Shown piece after piece: positions 10,262 through 26,158 of a stretch of DNA of 42,925 bases. The DNA is from Escherichia phage DE3, in the sequence record EU078592; one strand, 5' to 3'. How positions within the stretch are numbered: the first letter of the stretch is position 1; every line of letters starts with the position of its first letter. The notes under the pieces were generated by a model that was given only the letters and a program-made list of their open reading frames with translations, was not told the DNA's origin and did no database searches. The translations under genes and the position numbers were made by a program.

Positions 10262-10630
10262 TCAGGCGGCCTTGATAGTCATATCATCTGAATCAAATAT
10301 TCCTGATGTATCGATATCGGTAATTCTTATTCCTTCGCTACCATCCATTGGAGGCCATCCTTCCTGACCATTTCCATCATTCCAGTCGAACTCACACACA
10401 ACACCATATGCATTTAAGTCGCTTGAAATTGCTATAAGCAGAGCATGTTGCGCCAGCATGATTAATACAGCATTTAATACAGAGCCGTGTTTATTGAGTC
10501 GGTATTCAGAGTCTGACCAGAAATTATTAATCTGGTGAAGTTTTTCCTCTGTCATTACGTCATGGTCGATTTCAATTTCTATTGATGCTTTCCAGTCGTA
10601 ATCAATGATGTATTTTTTGATGTTTGACAT
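10262..10630 (-). CDS. ea10: Ea10 (122 aa)
   Basis: 122-aa ORF at expected position downstream of cIII. Confidence 0.85.
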   Translation of the reverse strand: MSNIKKYIIDYDWKASIEIEIDHDVMTEEKLHQINNFWSDSEYRLNKHGSVLNAVLIMLAQHALLIAISSDLNAYGVVCEFDWNDGNGQEGWPPMDGSEGIRITDIDTSGIFDSDDMTIKAA

Positions 10631-10812
10631 CTGTTCATATCCTCACAGATAAAAAATCGCCCTCACACTGGAGGGCAAAGAAGATTTCCAATAATCAGAA
10701 CAAGTCGGCTCCTGTTTAGTTACGAGCGACATTGCTCCGTGTATTCACTCGTTGGAATGAATACACAGTGCAGTGTTTATTCTGTTATTTATGCCAAAAA
10801 TAAAGGCCACTA

Positions 10813-11013
10813 TCAGGCAGCTTTGTTGTTCTGTTTACCAAGTTCTCTGGCAATCATTGCCGTCGTTCGTATTGCCCATTTATCGACATATTTCCCATCT
10901 TCCATTACAGGAAACATTTCTTCAGGCTTAACCATGCATTCCGATTGCAGCTTGCATCCATTGCATCGCTTGAATTGTCCACACCATTGATTTTTATCAA
11001 TAGTCGTAGTCAT
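10813..11013 (-). CDS. ral: Ral restriction-alleviation protein (66 aa)
   Basis: MTTTIDKNQWCGQFKRCNGCKLQSECMVKPEEMFPVMEDGKYVDKWAIRTTAMIARELGKQNNKAA. Confidence 0.88.
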   Translation of the reverse strand: MTTTIDKNQWCGQFKRCNGCKLQSECMVKPEEMFPVMEDGKYVDKWAIRTTAMIARELGKQNNKAA

Positions 11014-11091
11014 ACGGATAGTCCTGGTATTGTTCCATCACATCCTGAGGATGCTCTTCGAACTCTTCAAATTCTTCTTCCATATATCACC

Positions 11092-11391
11092 TCAAATAAG
11101 TGGTTTGCTGCCTAATTTAATTTTCTGGCGACCAACACAAGTCACACCCATTTCACTGCGTGGCTTGCTGTAGTAAATACGGTTCTGTTTACGCTCGACT
11201 TCTTCTGCCTTCTTGCAGCGAAGGCTTCCGAGTGATGCTGCTTTATCTGCTCTGACGCAACCAGAGAGCTTTAGCGCAATTTTTCGCGCCAGTGCTTCAT
11301 TACTGCGTCGCTCGGCAATAAGTTCTGCTCTGCGAGCTTTGTAGCGGCTTTTTGCCGTACCTTTGGATTCTTTCCAGACAATGGTTACCAT
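11092..11391 (-). CDS. N: N antiterminator, heterologous (phage 21-like), 99 aa with N-terminal arginine-rich motif
   Basis: MVTIVWKESKGTAKSRYKARRAELIAERRSN...; GGAG 7 nt upstream of this ATG; not the lambda N sequence. Confidence 0.85.
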   Translation of the reverse strand: MVTIVWKESKGTAKSRYKARRAELIAERRSNEALARKIALKLSGCVRADKAASLGSLRCKKAEEVERKQNRIYYSKPRSEMGVTCVGRQKIKLGSKPLI

Positions 11392-11501
11392 GATGGTCTC
11401 CTTTAAGTGGCTTTGGCGCATGACGCGTCGAGGTGCTTATCTTCTCGATCGCTGTCTTGTAGCTGCAATTCGCGCCATCCCCAAAACCACTCAAGTTCTG
11501 G

Positions 11502-11541
11502 TCTCAACGGTTAGGTTGAGAGTCCGTCGATGTTAAAGAGC
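11502..11541 (-). promoter_or_regulatory. nutL: nutL: boxA (GCTCTTTAACA, 11531-11541) and boxB hairpin (UCUCAAC-CUAACC-GUUGAGA, 11502-11521)
   Basis: Perfect 7-bp stem with 6-nt loop on the leftward transcript, boxA-like element 10 nt 5' of it. Confidence 0.75.
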
Positions 11542-11583
11542 CTGCCAATCTGTTCCGTTTGGCTTCCAGCGTCCTGCTGATGG

Positions 11584-11680
11584 CTTAAATTTAAGACTTC
11601 TTAATTTATTGGTCAAGTGCATTTTTGAAGAAAACTTAATTTTATGGGCGTGAATTTAGTTTGTCTTTGATTTTTAACGG
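11584..11680 (-). promoter_or_regulatory. OL/pL region of the heterologous immunity module; candidate pL -35 TTGACC (11611-11616) and -10 TAAATT (11588-11593) with operator-like palindrome between
   Basis: TTAAGACTTCTTAA at 11591-11604 and CTTAAATTTAAG at 11584-11595, read on minus strand. Confidence 0.55.
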
Positions 11681-11682
11681 GA

Positions 11683-11703
11683 AATAAAAAAGGGGCGAAA
11701 GCC
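11683..11703 (-). terminator. Intrinsic terminator immediately downstream of cI (minus strand)
   Basis: GGGGC-TTTC-GCCCC stem-loop followed by TTTTTTATTT on the minus strand. Confidence 0.7.
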
Positions 11704-11705
11704 CC

Positions 11706-12356
11706 TTAAGGAAGGTTTGCTAGCTTGGCATCAACGACAACGCCAATGATTTTACAGTTCCCATTGATTTCAATCATTGGGTATTGTGGATTGAGTGGTT
11801 TCAGGAATTTTCTACCGGCATCAATAACTAACTTTTTGAATGTCGCCTCGTTTTCTCCTTCAAGTTTGGCGACTACCAGCTTTCCATTACGTGGTTCGAC
11901 TTCTGGGTCGACGAGAATAATCATCCCCTCAGGAATACTCAGTCCTGCCGGGGCAGTCATTGAATCGCCTTTAACGTCGAGCCAAAAAGAGTCTTCAGAA
12001 CAATCTACCGTTGTGTCGTACCAGTTATCTATTGCACGCCTATGATATGGCTCTACAGCTTCCATCCAACATCCTGCGCTTACCCAACTAATTAGAGGAT
12101 ACGAACCTCTTGGATCATGCCTGCTGTGATAGGCAATGTTTGAAAGACTATCCTCTCCTTTCAACAGGTAATCAGGGGAGCACTGCAAAGCCTTGGCTAA
12201 GGCCAATAGGTTTTCGCCATTGGGCTCAGTTTCAGATCGCTCCCATTGGGAAATAGCAACATTAGACACGCCAACCATCTTGCCAAGGGCAGCCTGCCTA
12301 ATCTTGAGTTCTTTTCTGCGAGCGCGAATACGCTCACCCATCAGTTGTGTATTCAT
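11706..12356 (-). CDS. cI: CI repressor, heterologous (phage 21-like), 216 aa, HTH N-domain plus LexA/S24-like C-domain
   Basis: MNTQLMGERIRARRKELKIRQAALGKMVGVSNVAISQWERSETEPNGENLLALAKAL...GDSMTAPAG...; not lambda or 434 cI. Confidence 0.9.
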   Translation of the reverse strand: MNTQLMGERIRARRKELKIRQAALGKMVGVSNVAISQWERSETEPNGENLLALAKALQCSPDYLLKGEDSLSNIAYHSRHDPRGSYPLISWVSAGCWMEAVEPYHRRAIDNWYDTTVDCSEDSFWLDVKGDSMTAPAGLSIPEGMIILVDPEVEPRNGKLVVAKLEGENEATFKKLVIDAGRKFLKPLNPQYPMIEINGNCKIIGVVVDAKLANLP

Positions 12357-12436
12357 AGTTAAGACATCTTAAATAAACTTGACTTAAGATTCCTTTGGTG
12401 GATAATTTAAGTGTTCTTTAATTTCGGAGCGAGTCT
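12357..12436. promoter_or_regulatory. OR/pRM/pR region; pR -35 TTGACT (12379-12384), -10 GATAAT (12401-12406); operator-like palindrome TTAAGACATCTTAA (12359-12372)
   Basis: Divergent cI and cro ORFs separated by 80 bp; consensus-like sigma70 hexamers with 16-bp spacer. Confidence 0.7.
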
Positions 12437-12622
12437 ATGTACAAAAAAGATGTTATTGACCACTTCGGAACCCAGCGTGCTGTTGCTAAAGCACTAGGCA
12501 TTAGCGATGCAGCAGTCTCTCAGTGGAAAGAAGTTATCCCAGAGAAAGACGCCTATCGATTGGAAATCGTTACAGCTGGCGCCCTGAAGTATCAAGAAAG
12601 TGCTTACCGCCAAGCGGCATAA
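12437..12622 (+). CDS. cro: Cro, heterologous (phage 21-like), 61 aa
   Basis: MYKKDVIDHFGTQRAVAKALGISDAAVSQWKEVIPEKDAYRLEIVTAGALKYQESAYRQAA; HTH, not lambda Cro. Confidence 0.88.
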   Translation: MYKKDVIDHFGTQRAVAKALGISDAAVSQWKEVIPEKDAYRLEIVTAGALKYQESAYRQAA

Positions 12623-12628
12623 GCAAAT

Positions 12629-12669
12629 TGCTCTTTAACAGTTCTGGCCTTTCACCTCTAACCGGGTGA
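12629..12669 (+). promoter_or_regulatory. nutR: nutR: boxA (TGCTCTTTAACA, 12629-12640) and boxB hairpin (UCACCU-CUAACC-GGGUGA, 12652-12669)
   Basis: Same CUAACC loop as the nutL hairpin; stem differs. Confidence 0.7.
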
Positions 12670-12737
12670 GCAAACATCAGCGGCAAATCCATTGGGTGTG
12701 CCGCTATAACTCAATATCAATATAGGTAAATTAACAA

Positions 12738-13037
12738 ATGGCACAAGCAAGCTACAGCAAGCCAACACAGCGAGAAATTGATCGCGCTGAAACTGATTTA
12801 CTCATCAACCTGTCAACGCTTACCCAGCGCGGTCTGGCAAAGATGATTGGCTGTCATGAATCGAAGATAAGCAGAACGGACTGGAGATTTATTGCTTCGG
12901 TCTTGTGTGCTTTCGGAATGGCATCAGACATCAGTCCGATTAGCAGGGCTTTTAAGTATGCGCTTGATGGACTCACAAAGAAAAAACGCCCGGTGTGCAA
13001 GACCGAGCGTTCTGAACAAATCCAGATGGAGTTCTGA
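12738..13037 (+). CDS. cII: CII transcriptional activator, hybrid (heterologous N-terminal part, lambda-identical C-terminus)
   Basis: MAQASYSKPTQREIDRAETDLLINL...KKKRPVCKTERSEQIQMEF; only the C-terminal TERSEQIQMEF matches lambda CII as I recall it. Confidence 0.85.
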   Translation: MAQASYSKPTQREIDRAETDLLINLSTLTQRGLAKMIGCHESKISRTDWRFIASVLCAFGMASDISPISRAFKYALDGLTKKKRPVCKTERSEQIQMEF

Positions 13038-13069: not shown

Positions 13070-13969
13070 ATGACAAATACAGCAAAAATACTCAACTTCG
13101 GCAGAGGTAACTTTGCCGGACAGGAGCGTAATGTGGCAGATCTCGATGATGGTTACGCCAGACTATCAAATATGCTGCTTGAGGCTTATTCGGGCGCAGA
13201 TCTGACCAAGCGACAGTTTAAAGTGCTGCTTGCCATTCTGCGTAAAACCTATGGGTGGAATAAACCAATGGACAGAATCACCGATTCTCAACTTAGCGAG
13301 ATTACAAAGTTACCTGTCAAACGGTGCAATGAAGCCAAGTTAGAACTCGTCAGAATGAATATTATCAAGCAGCAAGGCGGCATGTTTGGACCAAATAAAA
13401 ACATCTCAGAATGGTGTATCCCTCAAAACGAGGGAAAATCCCCTAAAACGAGGGATAAAACATCCCTCAAATTGGGGGATTGCTATCCCTCAAAACAGGG
13501 GGACACAAAAGACACTATTACAAAAGAAAAAAGAAAAGATTATTCGTCAGAGAATTCTGGCGAATCCTCTGACCAGCCAGAAAACGACCTTTCTGTGGTG
13601 AAACCGGATGCTGCAATTCAGAGCGGCAGCAAGTGGGGGACAGCAGAAGACCTGACCGCCGCAGAGTGGATGTTTGACATGGTGAAGACTATCGCACCAT
13701 CAGCCAGAAAACCGAATTTTGCTGGGTGGGCTAACGATATCCGCCTGATGCGTGAACGTGACGGACGTAACCACCGCGACATGTGTGTGCTGTTCCGCTG
13801 GGCATGCCAGGACAACTTCTGGTCCGGTAACGTGCTGAGCCCGGCCAAACTCCGCGATAAGTGGACCCAACTCGAAATCAACCGTAACAAGCAACAGGCA
13901 GGCGTGACAGCCAGCAAACCAAAACTCGACCTGACAAACACAGACTGGATTTACGGGGTGGATCTATGA
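13070..13969 (+). CDS. O: Replication initiator O (299 aa)
   Basis: MTNTAKILNFGRGNFAGQERNVADLDDGYARLSNMLLEAYSGADLTKRQFKVLLAILRKTYGW... Confidence 0.96.
   Translation: MTNTAKILNFGRGNFAGQERNVADLDDGYARLSNMLLEAYSGADLTKRQFKVLLAILRKTYGWNKPMDRITDSQLSEITKLPVKRCNEAKLELVRMNIIKQQGGMFGPNKNISEWCIPQNEGKSPKTRDKTSLKLGDCYPSKQGDTKDTITKEKRKDYSSENSGESSDQPENDLSVVKPDAAIQSGSKWGTAEDLTAAEWMFDMVKTIAPSARKPNFAGWANDIRLMRERDGRNHRDMCVLFRWACQDNFWSGNVLSPAKLRDKWTQLEINRNKQQAGVTASKPKLDLTNTDWIYGVDL
13417..13545. repeat. ori: ori-lambda: four ~19-bp iterons (ATCCCTCAAAACGAGGGA-like) plus adjacent A/T-rich unwinding region, inside O
   Basis: Four direct repeats 13418-13504 followed by ACAAAAGACACTATTACAAAAGAAAAAAGAAAAGATTATT. 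Confidence 0.9.
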
Positions 13970-14667
13970 AAAACATCGCCGCACAGATGGTTAACTTTGA
14001 CCGTGAGCAGATGCGTCGGATCGCCAACAACATGCCGGAACAGTACGACGAAAAGCCGCAGGTACAGCAGGTAGCGCAGATCATCAACGGTGTGTTCAGC
14101 CAGTTACTGGCAACTTTCCCGGCGAGCCTGGCTAACCGTGACCAGAACGAAGTGAACGAAATCCGTCGCCAGTGGGTTCTGGCTTTTCGGGAAAACGGGA
14201 TCACCACGATGGAACAGGTTAACGCAGGAATGCGCGTAGCCCGTCGGCAGAATCGACCATTTCTGCCATCACCCGGGCAGTTTGTTGCATGGTGCCGGGA
14301 AGAAGCATCCGTTACCGCCGGACTGCCAAACGTCAGCGAGCTGGTTGATATGGTTTACGAGTATTGCCGGAAGCGAGGCCTGTATCCGGATGCGGAGTCT
14401 TATCCGTGGAAATCAAACGCGCACTACTGGCTGGTTACCAACCTGTATCAGAACATGCGGGCCAATGCGCTTACTGATGCGGAATTACGCCGTAAGGCCG
14501 CAGATGAGCTTGTCCATATGACTGCGAGAATTAACCGTGGTGAGGCGATCCCTGAACCAGTAAAACAACTTCCTGTCATGGGCGGTAGACCTCTAAATCG
14601 TGCACAGGCTCTGGCGAAGATCGCAGAAATCAAAGCTAAGTTCGGACTGAAAGGAGCAAGTGTATGA
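13966..14667 (+). CDS. P: Replication protein P (helicase loader), 233 aa
   Basis: [71 protein letters not shown]... Confidence 0.96.
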
Positions 14668-15467
14668 CGGGCAAAGAGGCAATTATTCATTACCTGGGGA
14701 CGCATAATAGCTTCTGTGCGCCGGACGTTGCCGCGCTAACAGGCGCAACAGTAACCAGCATAAATCAGGCCGCGGCTAAAATGGCACGGGCAGGTCTTCT
14801 GGTTATCGAAGGTAAGGTCTGGCGAACGGTGTATTACCGGTTTGCTACCAGGGAAGAACGGGAAGGAAAGATGAGCACGAACCTGATGAACAAACTGGAT
14901 ACGATTGGATTCGACAACAAAAAAGACCTGCTTATCTCGGTGGGCGATTTGGTTGATCGTGGTGCAGAGAACGTTGAATGCCTGGAATTAATCACATTCC
15001 CCTGGTTCAGAGCTGTACGTGGAAACCATGAGCAAATGATGATTGATGGCTTATCAGAGCGTGGAAACGTTAATCACTGGCTGCTTAATGGCGGTGGCTG
15101 GTTCTTTAATCTCGATTACGACAAAGAAATTCTGGCTAAAGCTCTTGCCCATAAAGCAGATGAACTTCCGTTAATCATCGAACTGGTGAGCAAAGATAAA
15201 AAATATGTTATCTGCCACGCCGATTATCCCTTTGACGAATACGAGTTTGGAAAGCCAGTTGATCATCAGCAGGTAATCTGGAACCGCGAACGAATCAGCA
15301 ACTCACAAAACGGGATCGTGAAAGAAATCAAAGGCGCGGACACGTTCATCTTTGGTCATACGCCAGCAGTGAAACCACTCAAGTTTGCCAACCAAATGTA
15401 TATCGATACCGGCGCAGTGTTCTGCGGAAACCTAACATTGATTCAGGTACAGGGAGAAGGCGCATGA
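14664..15467 (+). CDS. In-frame ren'-'ninI fusion created by nin5-type deletion (Ren residues 1-74 joined to lambda Ser/Thr phosphatase from ~residue 26)
   Basis: [30 protein letters not shown]...EGKMSTNL|[26 protein letters not shown]...GNHE...; junction ~14877-14886. Confidence 0.85.
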
Positions 15468-16087
15468 GACTCGAAAGCGTAGCTAAATTTCATTCGCCAA
15501 AAAGCCCGATGATGAGCGACTCACCACGGGCCACGGCTTCTGACTCTCTTTCCGGTACTGATGTGATGGCTGCTATGGGGATGGCGCAATCACAAGCCGG
15601 ATTCGGTATGGCTGCATTCTGCGGTAAGCACGAACTCAGCCAGAACGACAAACAAAAGGCTATCAACTATCTGATGCAATTTGCACACAAGGTATCGGGG
15701 AAATACCGTGGTGTGGCATATCTTGAAGGAAATACTAAGGCAAAGGTACTGCAAGTGCTCGCAACATTCGCTTATGCGGATTATTGCCGTAGTGCCGCGA
15801 CGCCGGGGGCAAGATGCAGAGATTGCCATGGTACAGGCCGTGCGGTTGATATTGCCAAAACAGAGCTGTGGGGGAGAGTTGTCGAGAAAGAGTGCGGAAG
15901 ATGCAAAGGCGTCGGCTATTCAAGGATGCCAGCAAGCGCAGCATATCGCGCTGTGACGATGCTAATCCCAAACCTTACCCAACCCACCTGGTCACGCACT
16001 GTTAAGCCGCTGTATGACGCTCTGGTGGTGCAATGCCACAAAGAAGAGTCAATCGCAGACAACATTTTGAATGCGGTCACACGTTAG
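15464..16087 (+). CDS. Q: Q late antiterminator (207 aa)
   Basis: [72 protein letters not shown]... Confidence 0.95.
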
Positions 16088-20815: not shown

Positions 20816-24496
<3,681 letters not shown>

Positions 24497-24516
<20 letters not shown>

Positions 24517-25816
24517 TCTCCCGCATATTGCCAGCATGGCCTTTAATGAGCCGCTGATGCTTGAACCCGCCTATGCGCGGGTTTTCTTTTGTGCGCTTGC
24601 AGGCCAGCTTGGGATCAGCAGCCTGACGGATGCGGTGTCCGGCGACAGCCTGACTGCCCAGGAGGCACTCGCGACGCTGGCATTATCCGGTGATGATGAC
24701 GGACCACGACAGGCCCGCAGTTATCAGGTCATGAACGGCATCGCCGTGCTGCCGGTGTCCGGCACGCTGGTCAGCCGGACGCGGGCGCTGCAGCCGTACT
24801 CGGGGATGACCGGTTACAACGGCATTATCGCCCGTCTGCAACAGGCTGCCAGCGATCCGATGGTGGACGGCATTCTGCTCGATATGGACACGCCCGGCGG
24901 GATGGTGGCGGGGGCATTTGACTGCGCTGACATCATCGCCCGTGTGCGTGACATAAAACCGGTATGGGCGCTTGCCAACGACATGAACTGCAGTGCAGGT
25001 CAGTTGCTTGCCAGTGCCGCCTCCCGGCGTCTGGTCACGCAGACCGCCCGGACAGGCTCCATCGGCGTCATGATGGCTCACAGTAATTACGGTGCTGCGC
25101 TGGAGAAACAGGGTGTGGAAATCACGCTGATTTACAGCGGCAGCCATAAGGTGGATGGCAACCCCTACAGCCATCTTCCGGATGACGTCCGGGAGACACT
25201 GCAGTCCCGGATGGACGCAACCCGCCAGATGTTTGCGCAGAAGGTGTCGGCATATACCGGCCTGTCCGTGCAGGTTGTGCTGGATACCGAGGCTGCAGTG
25301 TACAGCGGTCAGGAGGCCATTGATGCCGGACTGGCTGATGAACTTGTTAACAGCACCGATGCGATCACCGTCATGCGTGATGCACTGGATGCACGTAAAT
25401 CCCGTCTCTCAGGAGGGCGAATGACCAAAGAGACTCAATCAACAACTGTTTCAGCCACTGCTTCGCAGGCTGACGTTACTGACGTGGTGCCAGCGACGGA
25501 GGGCGAGAACGCCAGCGCGGCGCAGCCGGACGTGAACGCGCAGATCACCGCAGCGGTTGCGGCAGAAAACAGCCGCATTATGGGGATACTCAACTGTGAG
25601 GAGGCTCACGGACGCGAAGAACAGGCACGCGTGCTGGCAGAAACCCCCGGTATGACCGTGAAAACGGCCCGCCGCATTCTGGCCGCAGCACCACAGAGTG
25701 CACAGGCGCGCAGTGACACTGCGCTGGATCGTCTGATGCAGGGGGCACCGGCACCGCTGGCTGCAGGTAACCCGGCATCTGATGCCGTTAACGATTTGCT
25801 GAACACACCAGTGTAA
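24497..25816 (+). CDS. C: Capsid assembly protease C (439 aa), GTG start
   Basis: GTG at 24497 preceded by AGGAGGAG; MTAELRNLPHIASMAFNEPLMLEP...; ORF track extends upstream only because frame is open. Confidence 0.9.
25211..25816 (+). CDS. nu3: Scaffolding protein Nu3 (internal in-frame start within C)
   Basis: In-frame ATG at 25211 (MDATRQMFAQKVSAYTGL...), same stop as C. Confidence 0.75.
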   Translation: MDATRQMFAQKVSAYTGLSVQVVLDTEAAVYSGQEAIDAGLADELVNSTDAITVMRDALDARKSRLSGGRMTKETQSTTVSATASQADVTDVVPATEGENASAAQPDVNAQITAAVAAENSRIMGILNCEEAHGREEQARVLAETPGMTVKTARRILAAAPQSAQARSDTALDRLMQGAPAPLAAGNPASDAVNDLLNTPV

Positions 25817-25825
25817 GGGATGTTT

Positions 25826-26158
25826 ATGACGAGCAAAGAAACCTTTACCCATTACCAGCCGCAGGGCAACAGTGACCCGGCTCATACCGCAACCGCGCCC
25901 GGCGGATTGAGTGCGAAAGCGCCTGCAATGACCCCGCTGATGCTGGACACCTCCAGCCGTAAGCTGGTTGCGTGGGATGGCACCACCGACGGTGCTGCCG
26001 TTGGCATTCTTGCGGTTGCTGCTGACCAGACCAGCACCACGCTGACGTTCTACAAGTCCGGCACGTTCCGTTATGAGGATGTGCTCTGGCCGGAGGCTGC
26101 CAGCGACGAGACGAAAAAACGGACCGCGTTTGCCGGAACGGCAATCAGCATCGTTTAA
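25826..26158 (+). CDS. D: Head decoration protein D (110 aa)
   Basis: [79 protein letters not shown]... Confidence 0.95.

What the first reader, a model, noticed from the sequence alone, without database searches (positions are those of the whole stretch)
14664..15467. nin5-type deletion creates an in-frame Ren-NinI chimaera lacking the phosphatase GDxHG motif
Ren residues 1-74 run directly into the lambda Ser/Thr phosphatase sequence at a shared TNL tripeptide (junction ~14877-14886), deleting ninB-ninH and the tR2 terminator. The fusion retains the GDLVDRG and GNHE metal-binding motifs but loses the N-terminal GDLHG motif, so phosphatase activity is probably abolished or crippled. Loss of tR2 also makes Q expression N-independent.
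Basis: partly seen in the sequence, partly recalled or inferred. Interest (0 to 1): 0.5.

Follow-up and report, generated by a model that had tools for sequence, protein, structure and literature searches.

The report
Lambda nin5 deletion scar in DE3
This is the classical laboratory nin5 deletion of phage lambda, sitting in the DE3 prophage of E. coli BL21(DE3); it fuses the front of the ren gene in frame to a phosphatase gene that has lost its first metal-binding motif, and all of this is already known.

Summary
The window is the complete DE3 prophage of E. coli BL21(DE3), with 0 mismatches over 42,925 bases. ORF 14664-15467 (267 aa) consists of lambda ren codons 1-74 joined in frame to ninI codons 26/29-221. 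The join lies at a 10-bp direct repeat, CACGAACCTG (window 14876-14885), which encodes the shared Thr-Asn-Leu. The missing DNA is lambda 40502-43307 (2806 bp), which is the published nin5 deletion itself. It removes the last 22 codons of ren, the intrinsic terminator tR2, ninB-ninH, and the first 25 codons of ninI. Those ninI codons hold the GDLHG motif. GDLVDRG, GNHE, GH and IDTG remain. The junction occurs in only 20 of 5,426 complete E. coli genomes. Of the three whose neighbourhood I read, all carry engineered lambda prophages; the other 17 have laboratory strain names. The exact protein is already in the databases under inconsistent names. I recall, but could not retrieve, a 1989 report that nin5 phage lambda gt11 produces no phosphatase activity whereas nin+ lambda gt10 does. 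Novelty: already known. Interest is low.

The parts
13966..14667 (+). Lambda replication gene P; its stop codon overlaps the ren start (ATGA at 14664-14667)
   Evidence: ORF list; annotated as replication protein P in BL21(DE3) and in phage DN1
14664..15467 (+). Ren'-'NinI chimaeric ORF of 267 aa created by the nin5 deletion
   Evidence: The exact protein is ACF32374.1 / ACT42608.1 / UniRef C6ZCW7
14664..14885 (+). ren-derived part, codons 1-74 (equals lambda 40280-40501). It contains the whole MarR-like winged-helix region of Ren and lacks the last 22 codons
   Evidence: No mismatch to lambda. phrog_142 Ren-like, residues 1-74, E 3e-25; phrog_1687 MarR family, residues 1-65, E 1.7e-9
14876..14885 (+). 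nin5 junction: the 10-bp direct repeat CACGAACCTG, present at both lambda 40492-40501 and 43298-43307. Codons 14877-14885 encode the shared Thr-Asn-Leu
   Evidence: It is the joint-longest direct repeat between ren and the rest of the ninR region
14886..15467 (+). ninI-derived part (lambda 43308-43889; NinI residues 29-221 plus the stop). A truncated lambda Ser/Thr phosphatase lacking residues 1-25
   Evidence: No mismatch to lambda. PDB 1G5B aligns fusion 71-267 to chain residues 25-221. Pfam Metallophos matches profile positions 18-189 only, against 2-189 for intact NinI
14943..14963 (+). Retained PPP motif II, GDLVDRG (fusion residues 94-100)
   Evidence: sequence
15021..15032 (+). Retained PPP motif III, GNHE (fusion residues 120-123)
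   Evidence: sequence
15464..16087 (+). Late-gene antiterminator Q. Its start overlaps the stop of the chimaera (ATGA at 15464-15467). It carries K86Y from removal of a HindIII site

Best explanation
The feature is the classical nin5 deletion of bacteriophage lambda, carried by the DE3 prophage (a lambda D69-type vector: imm21, nin5, EcoRI-B fragment deleted, with lacI-lacUV5-T7 gene 1 inserted in int) of E. coli BL21(DE3).

Origin. A 2806-bp deletion between two copies of the 10-bp repeat CACGAACCTG joined ren codon 74 to ninI codon 29 in frame.

Shown consequences. The DNA loses the intrinsic terminator tR2, genes ninB to ninH, the tail of ren and the head of ninI. What remains is one 267-aa ORF whose start still overlaps the stop of P and whose stop still overlaps the start of Q.

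Inferred or known consequences.
1. Rightward transcription from pR reaches Q without needing N antitermination. This is the N-independent phenotype that gave nin its name.
2. The chimaera is made only when the prophage is derepressed.
3. It is catalytically dead or nearly so as a phosphatase. It lacks the first 25 NinI residues, which include the GDLHG motif, whose Asp20 and His22 (metal ligands, as I recall) are therefore gone.
4. Whether the retained winged-helix part of Ren still works is unknown.

The chimaera is best seen as a by-product scar of a deletion that was selected for its effect on termination, not as a protein with a function of its own.
For: The window is identical to NC_012971.2 748396-791320, with 0 mismatches over 42,925 bases. 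The end points were mapped exactly against lambda and agree with the published nin5 coordinates of 40,503-43,307 (PMC3349717). tR2 lies inside the deleted interval and is absent from the window. The rest of the vector architecture was mapped against lambda.

The junction is found in 20 of 5,426 complete E. coli genomes. I read the neighbourhood in three, and each holds an engineered lambda prophage: BL21(DE3) itself, ST18 with an intact-int prophage of different immunity, and BH212 with plasmid parts in int. The other 17 carry DE3-derived or other laboratory strain names. The same junction is also in phage DN1, which was isolated from a BL21(DE3) lysate.

GDxHG is missing while the other motifs are retained. 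Pfam Metallophos loses profile positions 2-17 and 22.6 bits relative to intact NinI. The NCBIfam phosphatase model drops from 271.6 to 230.8 bits. The PDB 1G5B alignment starts at chain residue 25. [quoted passage not shown]

The 10-bp repeat is the joint-longest between ren and the rest of ninR, and the only one of 9 bp or more that spans the whole nin region.
Against: No activity data could be retrieved here. The 1989 lambda gt10/gt11 result rests on my memory of the abstract; only the paper's existence and title were verified. Four of the catalytic-site motifs survive, so weak residual hydrolytic or phosphate-binding activity cannot be excluded from sequence alone. The single-sequence AlphaFold model was uninformative (pLDDT 31.6), so nothing can be said about whether the truncated domain folds. 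The Ren phenotype of nin5 phages was not found in the held literature.
Confidence: 0.95

Rival explanations
1. A natural lambdoid mosaic: a wild prophage that lacks the nin region and carries a naturally evolved Ren-phosphatase fusion gene.
For: Lambdoid phages are mosaic and their ninR regions vary. ren and ninI homologues each occur in thousands of E. coli genomes (2,926 genomes with partial matches).
Against: Both flanks are 100% identical to lambda right up to a 10-bp repeat. The window carries the lacI-T7 RNA polymerase cassette in int and a precise EcoRI-fragment deletion. The junction appears in only 20 of 5,426 genomes; the three contexts I read are engineered prophages and the remaining 17 have laboratory strain names.
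Confidence: 0.01
2. The chimaera is still an active phosphatase, or a Ren-targeted phosphatase with a new function, because motifs II and III and the C-terminal His ligands survive.
For: GDLVDRG, GNHE, GH and IDTG are retained. Pfam Metallophos is still above its gathering score, 41.7 against 21.5 bits. The ORF keeps its native ribosome-binding context and its overlap with the stop of P.
Against: The GDxHG motif, with the Asp20 and His22 metal ligands, is lost, together with the 18 residues before it (PMC535813). From memory, cells infected with lambda gt11 (nin5) show no casein phosphatase activity (Cohen & Cohen 1989).
Confidence: 0.04
3. The real product is shorter and starts at an internal ATG, such as 14781 (the 228-aa RefSeq model) or 14871 (Met70, preceded by GGAAGGAAAG), so no true Ren-NinI chimaera is made.
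For: RefSeq PGAP annotates 14781-15467 as a 228-aa 'metallophosphoesterase', WP_373896934.1. In-frame ATGs exist at 14781, 14871 and 14886.
Against: 14664 is the native ren start. It is preceded by AAAGGAG and overlaps the stop of P as ATGA, exactly as in lambda. The frame is open from there on. The GenBank DE3, BL21(DE3) and DN1 records annotate the 267-aa product. Internal starts could at most add minor products, and these would also lack GDxHG.
Confidence: 0.1
4. Assembly or sequencing artefact that joins ren to ninI.
For: None beyond the general possibility of collapse at a short repeat.
Against: The same junction is present in 20 independently assembled complete genomes, in phage DN1 and in lambda record OR474059.1. 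It matches the published nin5 coordinates.
Confidence: 0.005

Closest known systems
Lambda nin5 deletion (N-independent; the ninR deletion used in lambda gt11, D69, DE3, lambda pir and many other vectors)
   Same: End points are identical within the 10-bp repeat (lambda 40502-43307; published as 40,503-43,307). The size is the same. It removes ren' through ninI' and tR2. The flanking sequence is the same.
   Different: Nothing. This is the allele itself, here on an imm21 prophage with a T7 RNA polymerase insert.
Lambda Ser/Thr protein phosphatase (NinI, ORF221, lambda PP; PDB 1G5B)
   Same: Fusion residues 72-267 are identical to NinI 26-221. Motifs GDLVDRG, GNHE, GH(T) and IDTG are present.
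   Different: It lacks NinI residues 1-25, including GDLHG (Asp20, His22). It carries 71 foreign N-terminal residues from Ren. It is expected to be inactive.
Lambda Ren (Rex-exclusion neutralising protein, 96 aa)
   Same: Residues 1-74 are identical and include the MarR-like winged-helix region (residues 1-65).
   Different: The C-terminal 22 residues (VFKECRQSAAMKRVLAVYGVKR) are replaced by 193 residues of the phosphatase. Ren activity of the fusion is unknown. DE3 is imm21 and has no rex genes of its own.
E. coli PrpA/PrpB phosphatases (NCBIfam PRK11439 / PRK09968)
   Same: Same PPP fold family; these are the best NCBIfam matches.
   Different: Scores lie below the equivalog cut-offs for both intact NinI and the fusion. 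The fusion also lacks motif I.

Membership tests
Lambda nin5 deletion allele | Left end point inside ren at lambda 40501/40502 | tested here: met
   The window is identical to lambda up to 40501 (window 14885); the first mismatch is at 40502
Lambda nin5 deletion allele | Right end point inside ninI at lambda 43307/43308, with about 2.8 kb removed | tested here: met
   Identity resumes at lambda 43298 (window 14876). 2806 bp are deleted. The published range is 40,503-43,307
Lambda nin5 deletion allele | Removes terminator tR2 and genes ninB-ninH | tested here: met
   tR2 lies at lambda 40596-40627, within the deletion, and is absent from the window. ninB-ninH (40644-43246) all lie inside the deleted interval
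Lambda nin5 deletion allele | N-independent growth and Q expression | not testable with these tools
   This is a phenotype. It is textbook for nin5; the titles of Costantino et al. 1990 and Sternberg & Enquist 1979 were seen
DE3 prophage of BL21(DE3) (lambda D69 derivative) | Sequence identity over the whole prophage, including the lacI-lacUV5-T7 gene 1 insert in int, imm21 and nin5 | tested here: met
   0 mismatches over 42,925 bases against NC_012971.2; annotation; map against lambda
PPP-family Ser/Thr phosphatase (Pfam Metallophos) | Motif I, GDXHG (metal ligands Asp20/His22 in lambda PP) | tested here: not met
   No GD.HG in the fusion; it is present at NinI 19-23. Pfam profile positions 2-17 are unmatched
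PPP-family Ser/Thr phosphatase (Pfam Metallophos) | Motif II, GDXXDRG | tested here: met
   GDLVDRG at fusion residues 94-100
PPP-family Ser/Thr phosphatase (Pfam Metallophos) | Motif III, GNH(E/D) | tested here: met
   GNHE at fusion residues 120-123
PPP-family Ser/Thr phosphatase (Pfam Metallophos) | C-terminal Gly-His metal ligand (H186) and the bacterial-type (I/L/V)D(S/T)G motif | tested here: met
   GHT at fusion 231-233. IDTG is visible in the translation. The motifs are defined in PMC535813
PPP-family Ser/Thr phosphatase (Pfam Metallophos) | Mn2+-dependent phosphomonoesterase activity | not testable with these tools
   Needs an enzyme assay. From memory, lambda gt11 (nin5) infection gives no activity (Cohen & Cohen 1989; paper not held)
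Ren-like exclusion protein (phrog_142) | Full-length match to the Ren profile | tested here: not met
   The fusion matches profile positions 11-89 of 116 (89.6 bits). Intact Ren matches 11-110 (142 bits). The C-terminal 22 residues are missing
Ren-like exclusion protein (phrog_142) | Protection of the phage from Rex exclusion | not testable with these tools
   This is a phenotype. No statement about nin5 phages was found in the held papers

The most novel reading that the evidence does not exclude
The in-frame nature of the nin5 scar may not be an accident. By keeping one continuous translated ORF whose start overlaps the stop of P and whose stop overlaps the start of Q, the fusion would protect the pR transcript from Rho-dependent polarity and keep Q translationally coupled. 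That could have been necessary for the N-independent growth by which nin5 was selected. Alternatively, the chimaera might retain a Ren (winged-helix) activity or act as a catalytically dead phosphate or substrate trap when DE3 is induced.
Probability: 0.08. Interest if true: 0.2.

Novelty: already known. Interest (0 to 1): 0.06.

Why it matters
It matters little for discovery. nin5 has been a standard lambda vector mutation for decades, its end points are published, and the fusion protein is already in the sequence databases.

There are three practical points:
1. Anyone annotating BL21(DE3)-type genomes should know that this gene is a laboratory deletion scar. It is named inconsistently, as 'Ren exclusion protein' (267 aa), 'serine/threonine protein phosphatase' or 'metallophosphoesterase' (228 aa from an internal start).
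2. DE3 strains should not be assumed to encode an active lambda phosphatase.
3. The junction is a clean marker for laboratory lambda vectors, and so for laboratory contamination, in genome and metagenome data.

Tried and rejected
- **Structure prediction.** Single-sequence AlphaFold2 of the 267-aa fusion gave mean pLDDT 31.6 and pTM 0.29. It is unusable, so no fold search was run.
- **Homology search.** A better model could not show whether the truncated domain is active, and the identity of the feature was already settled.
- **Papers not held.** Cohen & Cohen 1989 (by PubMed id; by PMC1138766), Costantino et al. 1990 (PMC213295) and Sternberg & Enquist 1979 (PMC353291). Their contents are therefore cited from memory, or by title only.
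- **Full-text searches.** Searches on nin5/phosphatase, ORF221/gt11, DE3/nin5/D69 and ren/Rex/nin5 found only strain-list mentions, the nin5 coordinates and the PPP motif definition. Nothing was found on the Ren phenotype of nin5 phages.
- **Pfam and NCBIfam.** Neither gives a significant family for Ren: the best Pfam E-values are 0.036-0.13 for HTH_Crp_2 and MarR_2, and NCBIfam has none. Only PHROGs supports the MarR-like assignment.
- **Rivals.** A natural mosaic and an assembly artefact were both considered and rejected (see the rival explanations).

Full report
**What is in the sequence**

ORF 14664-15467 on the + strand encodes 267 aa. I compared it base by base with lambda J02459 (locus L001). 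From the ren ATG (lambda 40280 = window 14664) the two sequences are identical up to lambda 40501 (window 14885) and then diverge. Working back from the ninI stop (lambda 43889 = window 15467), they are identical down to lambda 43298 (window 14876).

The two matching stretches overlap by 10 bases, CACGAACCTG. This repeat occurs at both lambda 40492-40501 and 43298-43307. The missing DNA is therefore lambda 40502-43307, 2806 bp. Both break points sit at codon phase 0 of their genes, so ren codons 1-74 continue in frame into ninI. The three codons inside the repeat read Thr-Asn-Leu in both parents (Ren 72-74, NinI 26-28).

**What was lost and what was kept**

The deleted interval holds:
- the last 22 codons of ren;
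- the strong intrinsic terminator AGGCCTGCTGGTAATCGCAGGCCTTTTTATTT at lambda 40596-40627, between ren and ninB, which is tR2;
- ninB, C, D, E, F, G and H;
- the first 25 codons of ninI.

The terminator has no match in the window even with three mismatches allowed.

At the protein level the fusion has no GDxHG motif; in NinI this is GDLHG at residues 19-23. It keeps GDLVDRG (94-100), GNHE (120-123) and GHT (231-233), as well as IDTG.

Several comparisons show the same truncation. Against solved structures, fusion residues 71-267 align with residues 25-221 of lambda phosphatase 1G5B. Pfam Metallophos covers profile positions 18-189 at 41.7 bits in the fusion, against 2-189 at 64.3 bits in intact NinI. 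The best NCBIfam phosphatase model falls from 271.6 to 230.8 bits. The Ren part matches the PHROG Ren family over residues 1-74 and a MarR-family profile over residues 1-65. The whole winged-helix-like region of Ren is therefore retained, and only its C-terminal 22 residues are gone.

**Where the window comes from**

The window is not a wild phage. It is identical, with 0 mismatches in 42,925 bases, to E. coli BL21(DE3) NC_012971.2 748396-791320. It starts at the att core GCTTTTTTATACTAA and ends just before the second copy, so it is the complete DE3 prophage.

Mapped against lambda, it consists of:
- lambda with a lacI / lacUV5-lacZ' / T7 gene 1 cassette in the BamHI site of int (window 255-4696);
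- an imm21 substitution (11109-12971);
- nin5;
- a precise deletion of the EcoRI fragment 21226-26104 (junction GAATTC at 41306-41311);
- a destroyed HindIII site in Q.

From my own knowledge, these are the marks of the lambda D69 cloning vector from which DE3 was built.

**How widespread the junction is**

A 401-base probe across the junction is fully matched in only 20 of 5,426 complete E. coli genomes. Most are BL21(DE3) or strains with DE3-derived names, such as C41, C43, Rosetta2, Nico21, BAP1 and BL21 Star. Two are not:
- ST18 carries a differently immune lambda prophage with an intact int. From knowledge, this is a lambda pir lysogen.
- BH212 carries the same imm21 prophage with rop, lacI, tet, kan/ble, 5S rRNA and bla fragments in int. 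It is therefore engineered, despite its 'Homo sapiens' host label.

I read the neighbourhood only for BL21(DE3), ST18 and BH212; for the other 17 genomes, laboratory origin rests on the strain names.

Among phage records, the junction is in phage DN1, which was isolated from a BL21(DE3) lysate, and in one unannotated lambda record. A held paper gives the nin5 deletion as lambda bases 40,503-43,307, 'ren-ninA - ninI' (PMC3349717). That is the same event, within the ambiguity of the repeat. The feature is therefore nin5 itself.

**How it arose**

CACGAACCTG is the joint-longest exact direct repeat between the part of ren upstream of tR2 and the rest of the ninR region up to Q. It is the only repeat of 9 bp or more whose right copy lies beyond ninG. 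A deletion between short direct repeats, by slipped mispairing or illegitimate recombination, is the obvious origin. This step is inferred.

**How it works**

*Shown.* No tR2 remains between pR and Q. P, the chimaera and Q form an uninterrupted chain with ATGA stop/start overlaps at 14664-14667 and 15464-15467.

*Established knowledge.* nin stands for N-independent. Removing the terminators of the nin region lets pR transcription reach Q without N. The deletion also frees 2.8 kb of cloning capacity. The titles of Costantino, Zuber & Court 1990 and Sternberg & Enquist 1979 were seen, but their texts are not held.

*Inferred.* The chimaera should be inactive as a phosphatase. [quoted passage not shown]

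*From memory only.* Cohen & Cohen (Biochem J 1989; 260:931) reported a Mn2+-stimulated casein phosphatase in cells infected with lambda gt10 but none with lambda gt11. They attributed the difference to gt11 lacking the part of ORF221 that holds the first conserved region. I verified the paper's existence and title but could not read it.

In a DE3 lysogen the ORF lies downstream of the repressed pR of imm21, so it is expressed only on prophage derepression.

**Open points**

I could not determine whether the truncated Ren part still neutralises Rex exclusion. I also could not determine whether the truncated phosphatase domain folds, because the single-sequence AlphaFold model was useless (pLDDT 31.6).

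An in-frame junction has a one-in-three prior by chance. It is conceivable that continuous translation up to Q was favoured during selection for N-independent growth, because it would avoid Rho-dependent polarity. This is speculation, to which I give a low probability.

**Annotation**

The exact 267-aa sequence is in public databases as ACF32374.1, ACT29902.1, ACT42608.1 and ATN94257.1, and in a UniRef cluster named 'Ren exclusion protein' with representative C6ZCW7. It was seen on 257 contigs. Current RefSeq instead calls a 228-aa 'metallophosphoesterase' from the internal ATG at 14781. The native ren start at 14664, with AAAGGAG upstream and an overlap with the stop of P, is the more credible start.

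**Verdict**

Novelty: already known. Interest is low.

Noticed in passing
window 1-42925: The whole window is the DE3 prophage of E. coli BL21(DE3), with 0 mismatches to NC_012971.2 748396-791320. It begins at the att core GCTTTTTTATACTAA and ends just before the second copy.
   Followed up: yes
window 255-4696 (flanked by int fragments at 89-253 and 4688-5608, - strand): A lacI, lacUV5-lacZ' fragment and T7 RNA polymerase gene 1 cassette is inserted at the BamHI site of lambda int (GGATCC at both junctions). It splits int, so the prophage cannot excise.
   Followed up: partly
window 41306-41311: A precise deletion of the lambda EcoRI fragment 21226-26104 (part of stf/tfa, ea47, ea31 and part of ea59) leaves a single GAATTC at the junction. 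This is a vector-construction scar.
   Followed up: partly
window 11109-12971: An imm21 substitution has no megablast match to lambda. It holds a 216-aa P22 c2/21 cI-like repressor (11706-12356, -), cro (12437-12622) and cII (12738-13037). There are no rexA/rexB genes, so the prophage has nothing for Ren to counteract.
   Followed up: partly
window 15719 and 15721 (in Q): Two substitutions (lambda 44141 A>T and 44143 G>T) destroy the HindIII site AAGCTT and change Q Lys86 to Tyr. This looks like a deliberate restriction-site removal that altered the antiterminator protein.
   Followed up: partly
window 14781-15467 versus 14664-15467: Annotation is inconsistent. RefSeq PGAP calls a 228-aa 'metallophosphoesterase' from an internal ATG. 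GenBank and UniRef call the 267-aa product 'Ren exclusion protein', although three quarters of it is phosphatase.
   Followed up: yes
window 14871 (Met70 of the fusion): An in-frame ATG is preceded by GGGAAGGAAAG, a good Shine-Dalgarno-like sequence inside ren. Internal initiation there would give a 198-aa truncated phosphatase with no Ren domain.
   Followed up: no
window 6819-7121 and 7438-7654 (- strand): RefSeq marks the ea22-like gene as incomplete and a 'ZapA'-like ORF (near lambda orf61) as frameshifted in DE3. The lambda comparison shows 4 mismatches and 1 gap over 4697-11108, which I did not locate individually.
   Followed up: no
phage record MW057783.1 ('Campylobacter phage CJLB-4', 48,361 bp; hit H13): A record labelled as a Campylobacter jejuni phage is 99.8% identical to lambda over ninI-Q and has a lambda-like length. 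Fragments of the lambda phosphatase are also deposited under S. aureus, E. faecium and C. coli names. These are probably lambda DNA contamination.
   Followed up: no
L004 (BH212, NZ_CP029239.1 794753-827153): A genome labelled host 'Homo sapiens' carries the same imm21 nin5 vector prophage, with rop, lacI, tet, kan/ble, 5S rRNA and bla fragments in int. It also has several frameshifted phage genes (cro, cII, O, C). It is an engineered laboratory strain, and possibly a lower-quality assembly.
   Followed up: partly
PHROG profiles phrog_246 and phrog_171: The NinI-like phosphatase profile is 417 positions long, and the NinG/Rap profile matches the phosphatase part at positions 256-447. Some phage records therefore appear to contain fused or merged NinG-NinI or N-terminally extended NinI proteins.
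   Followed up: no
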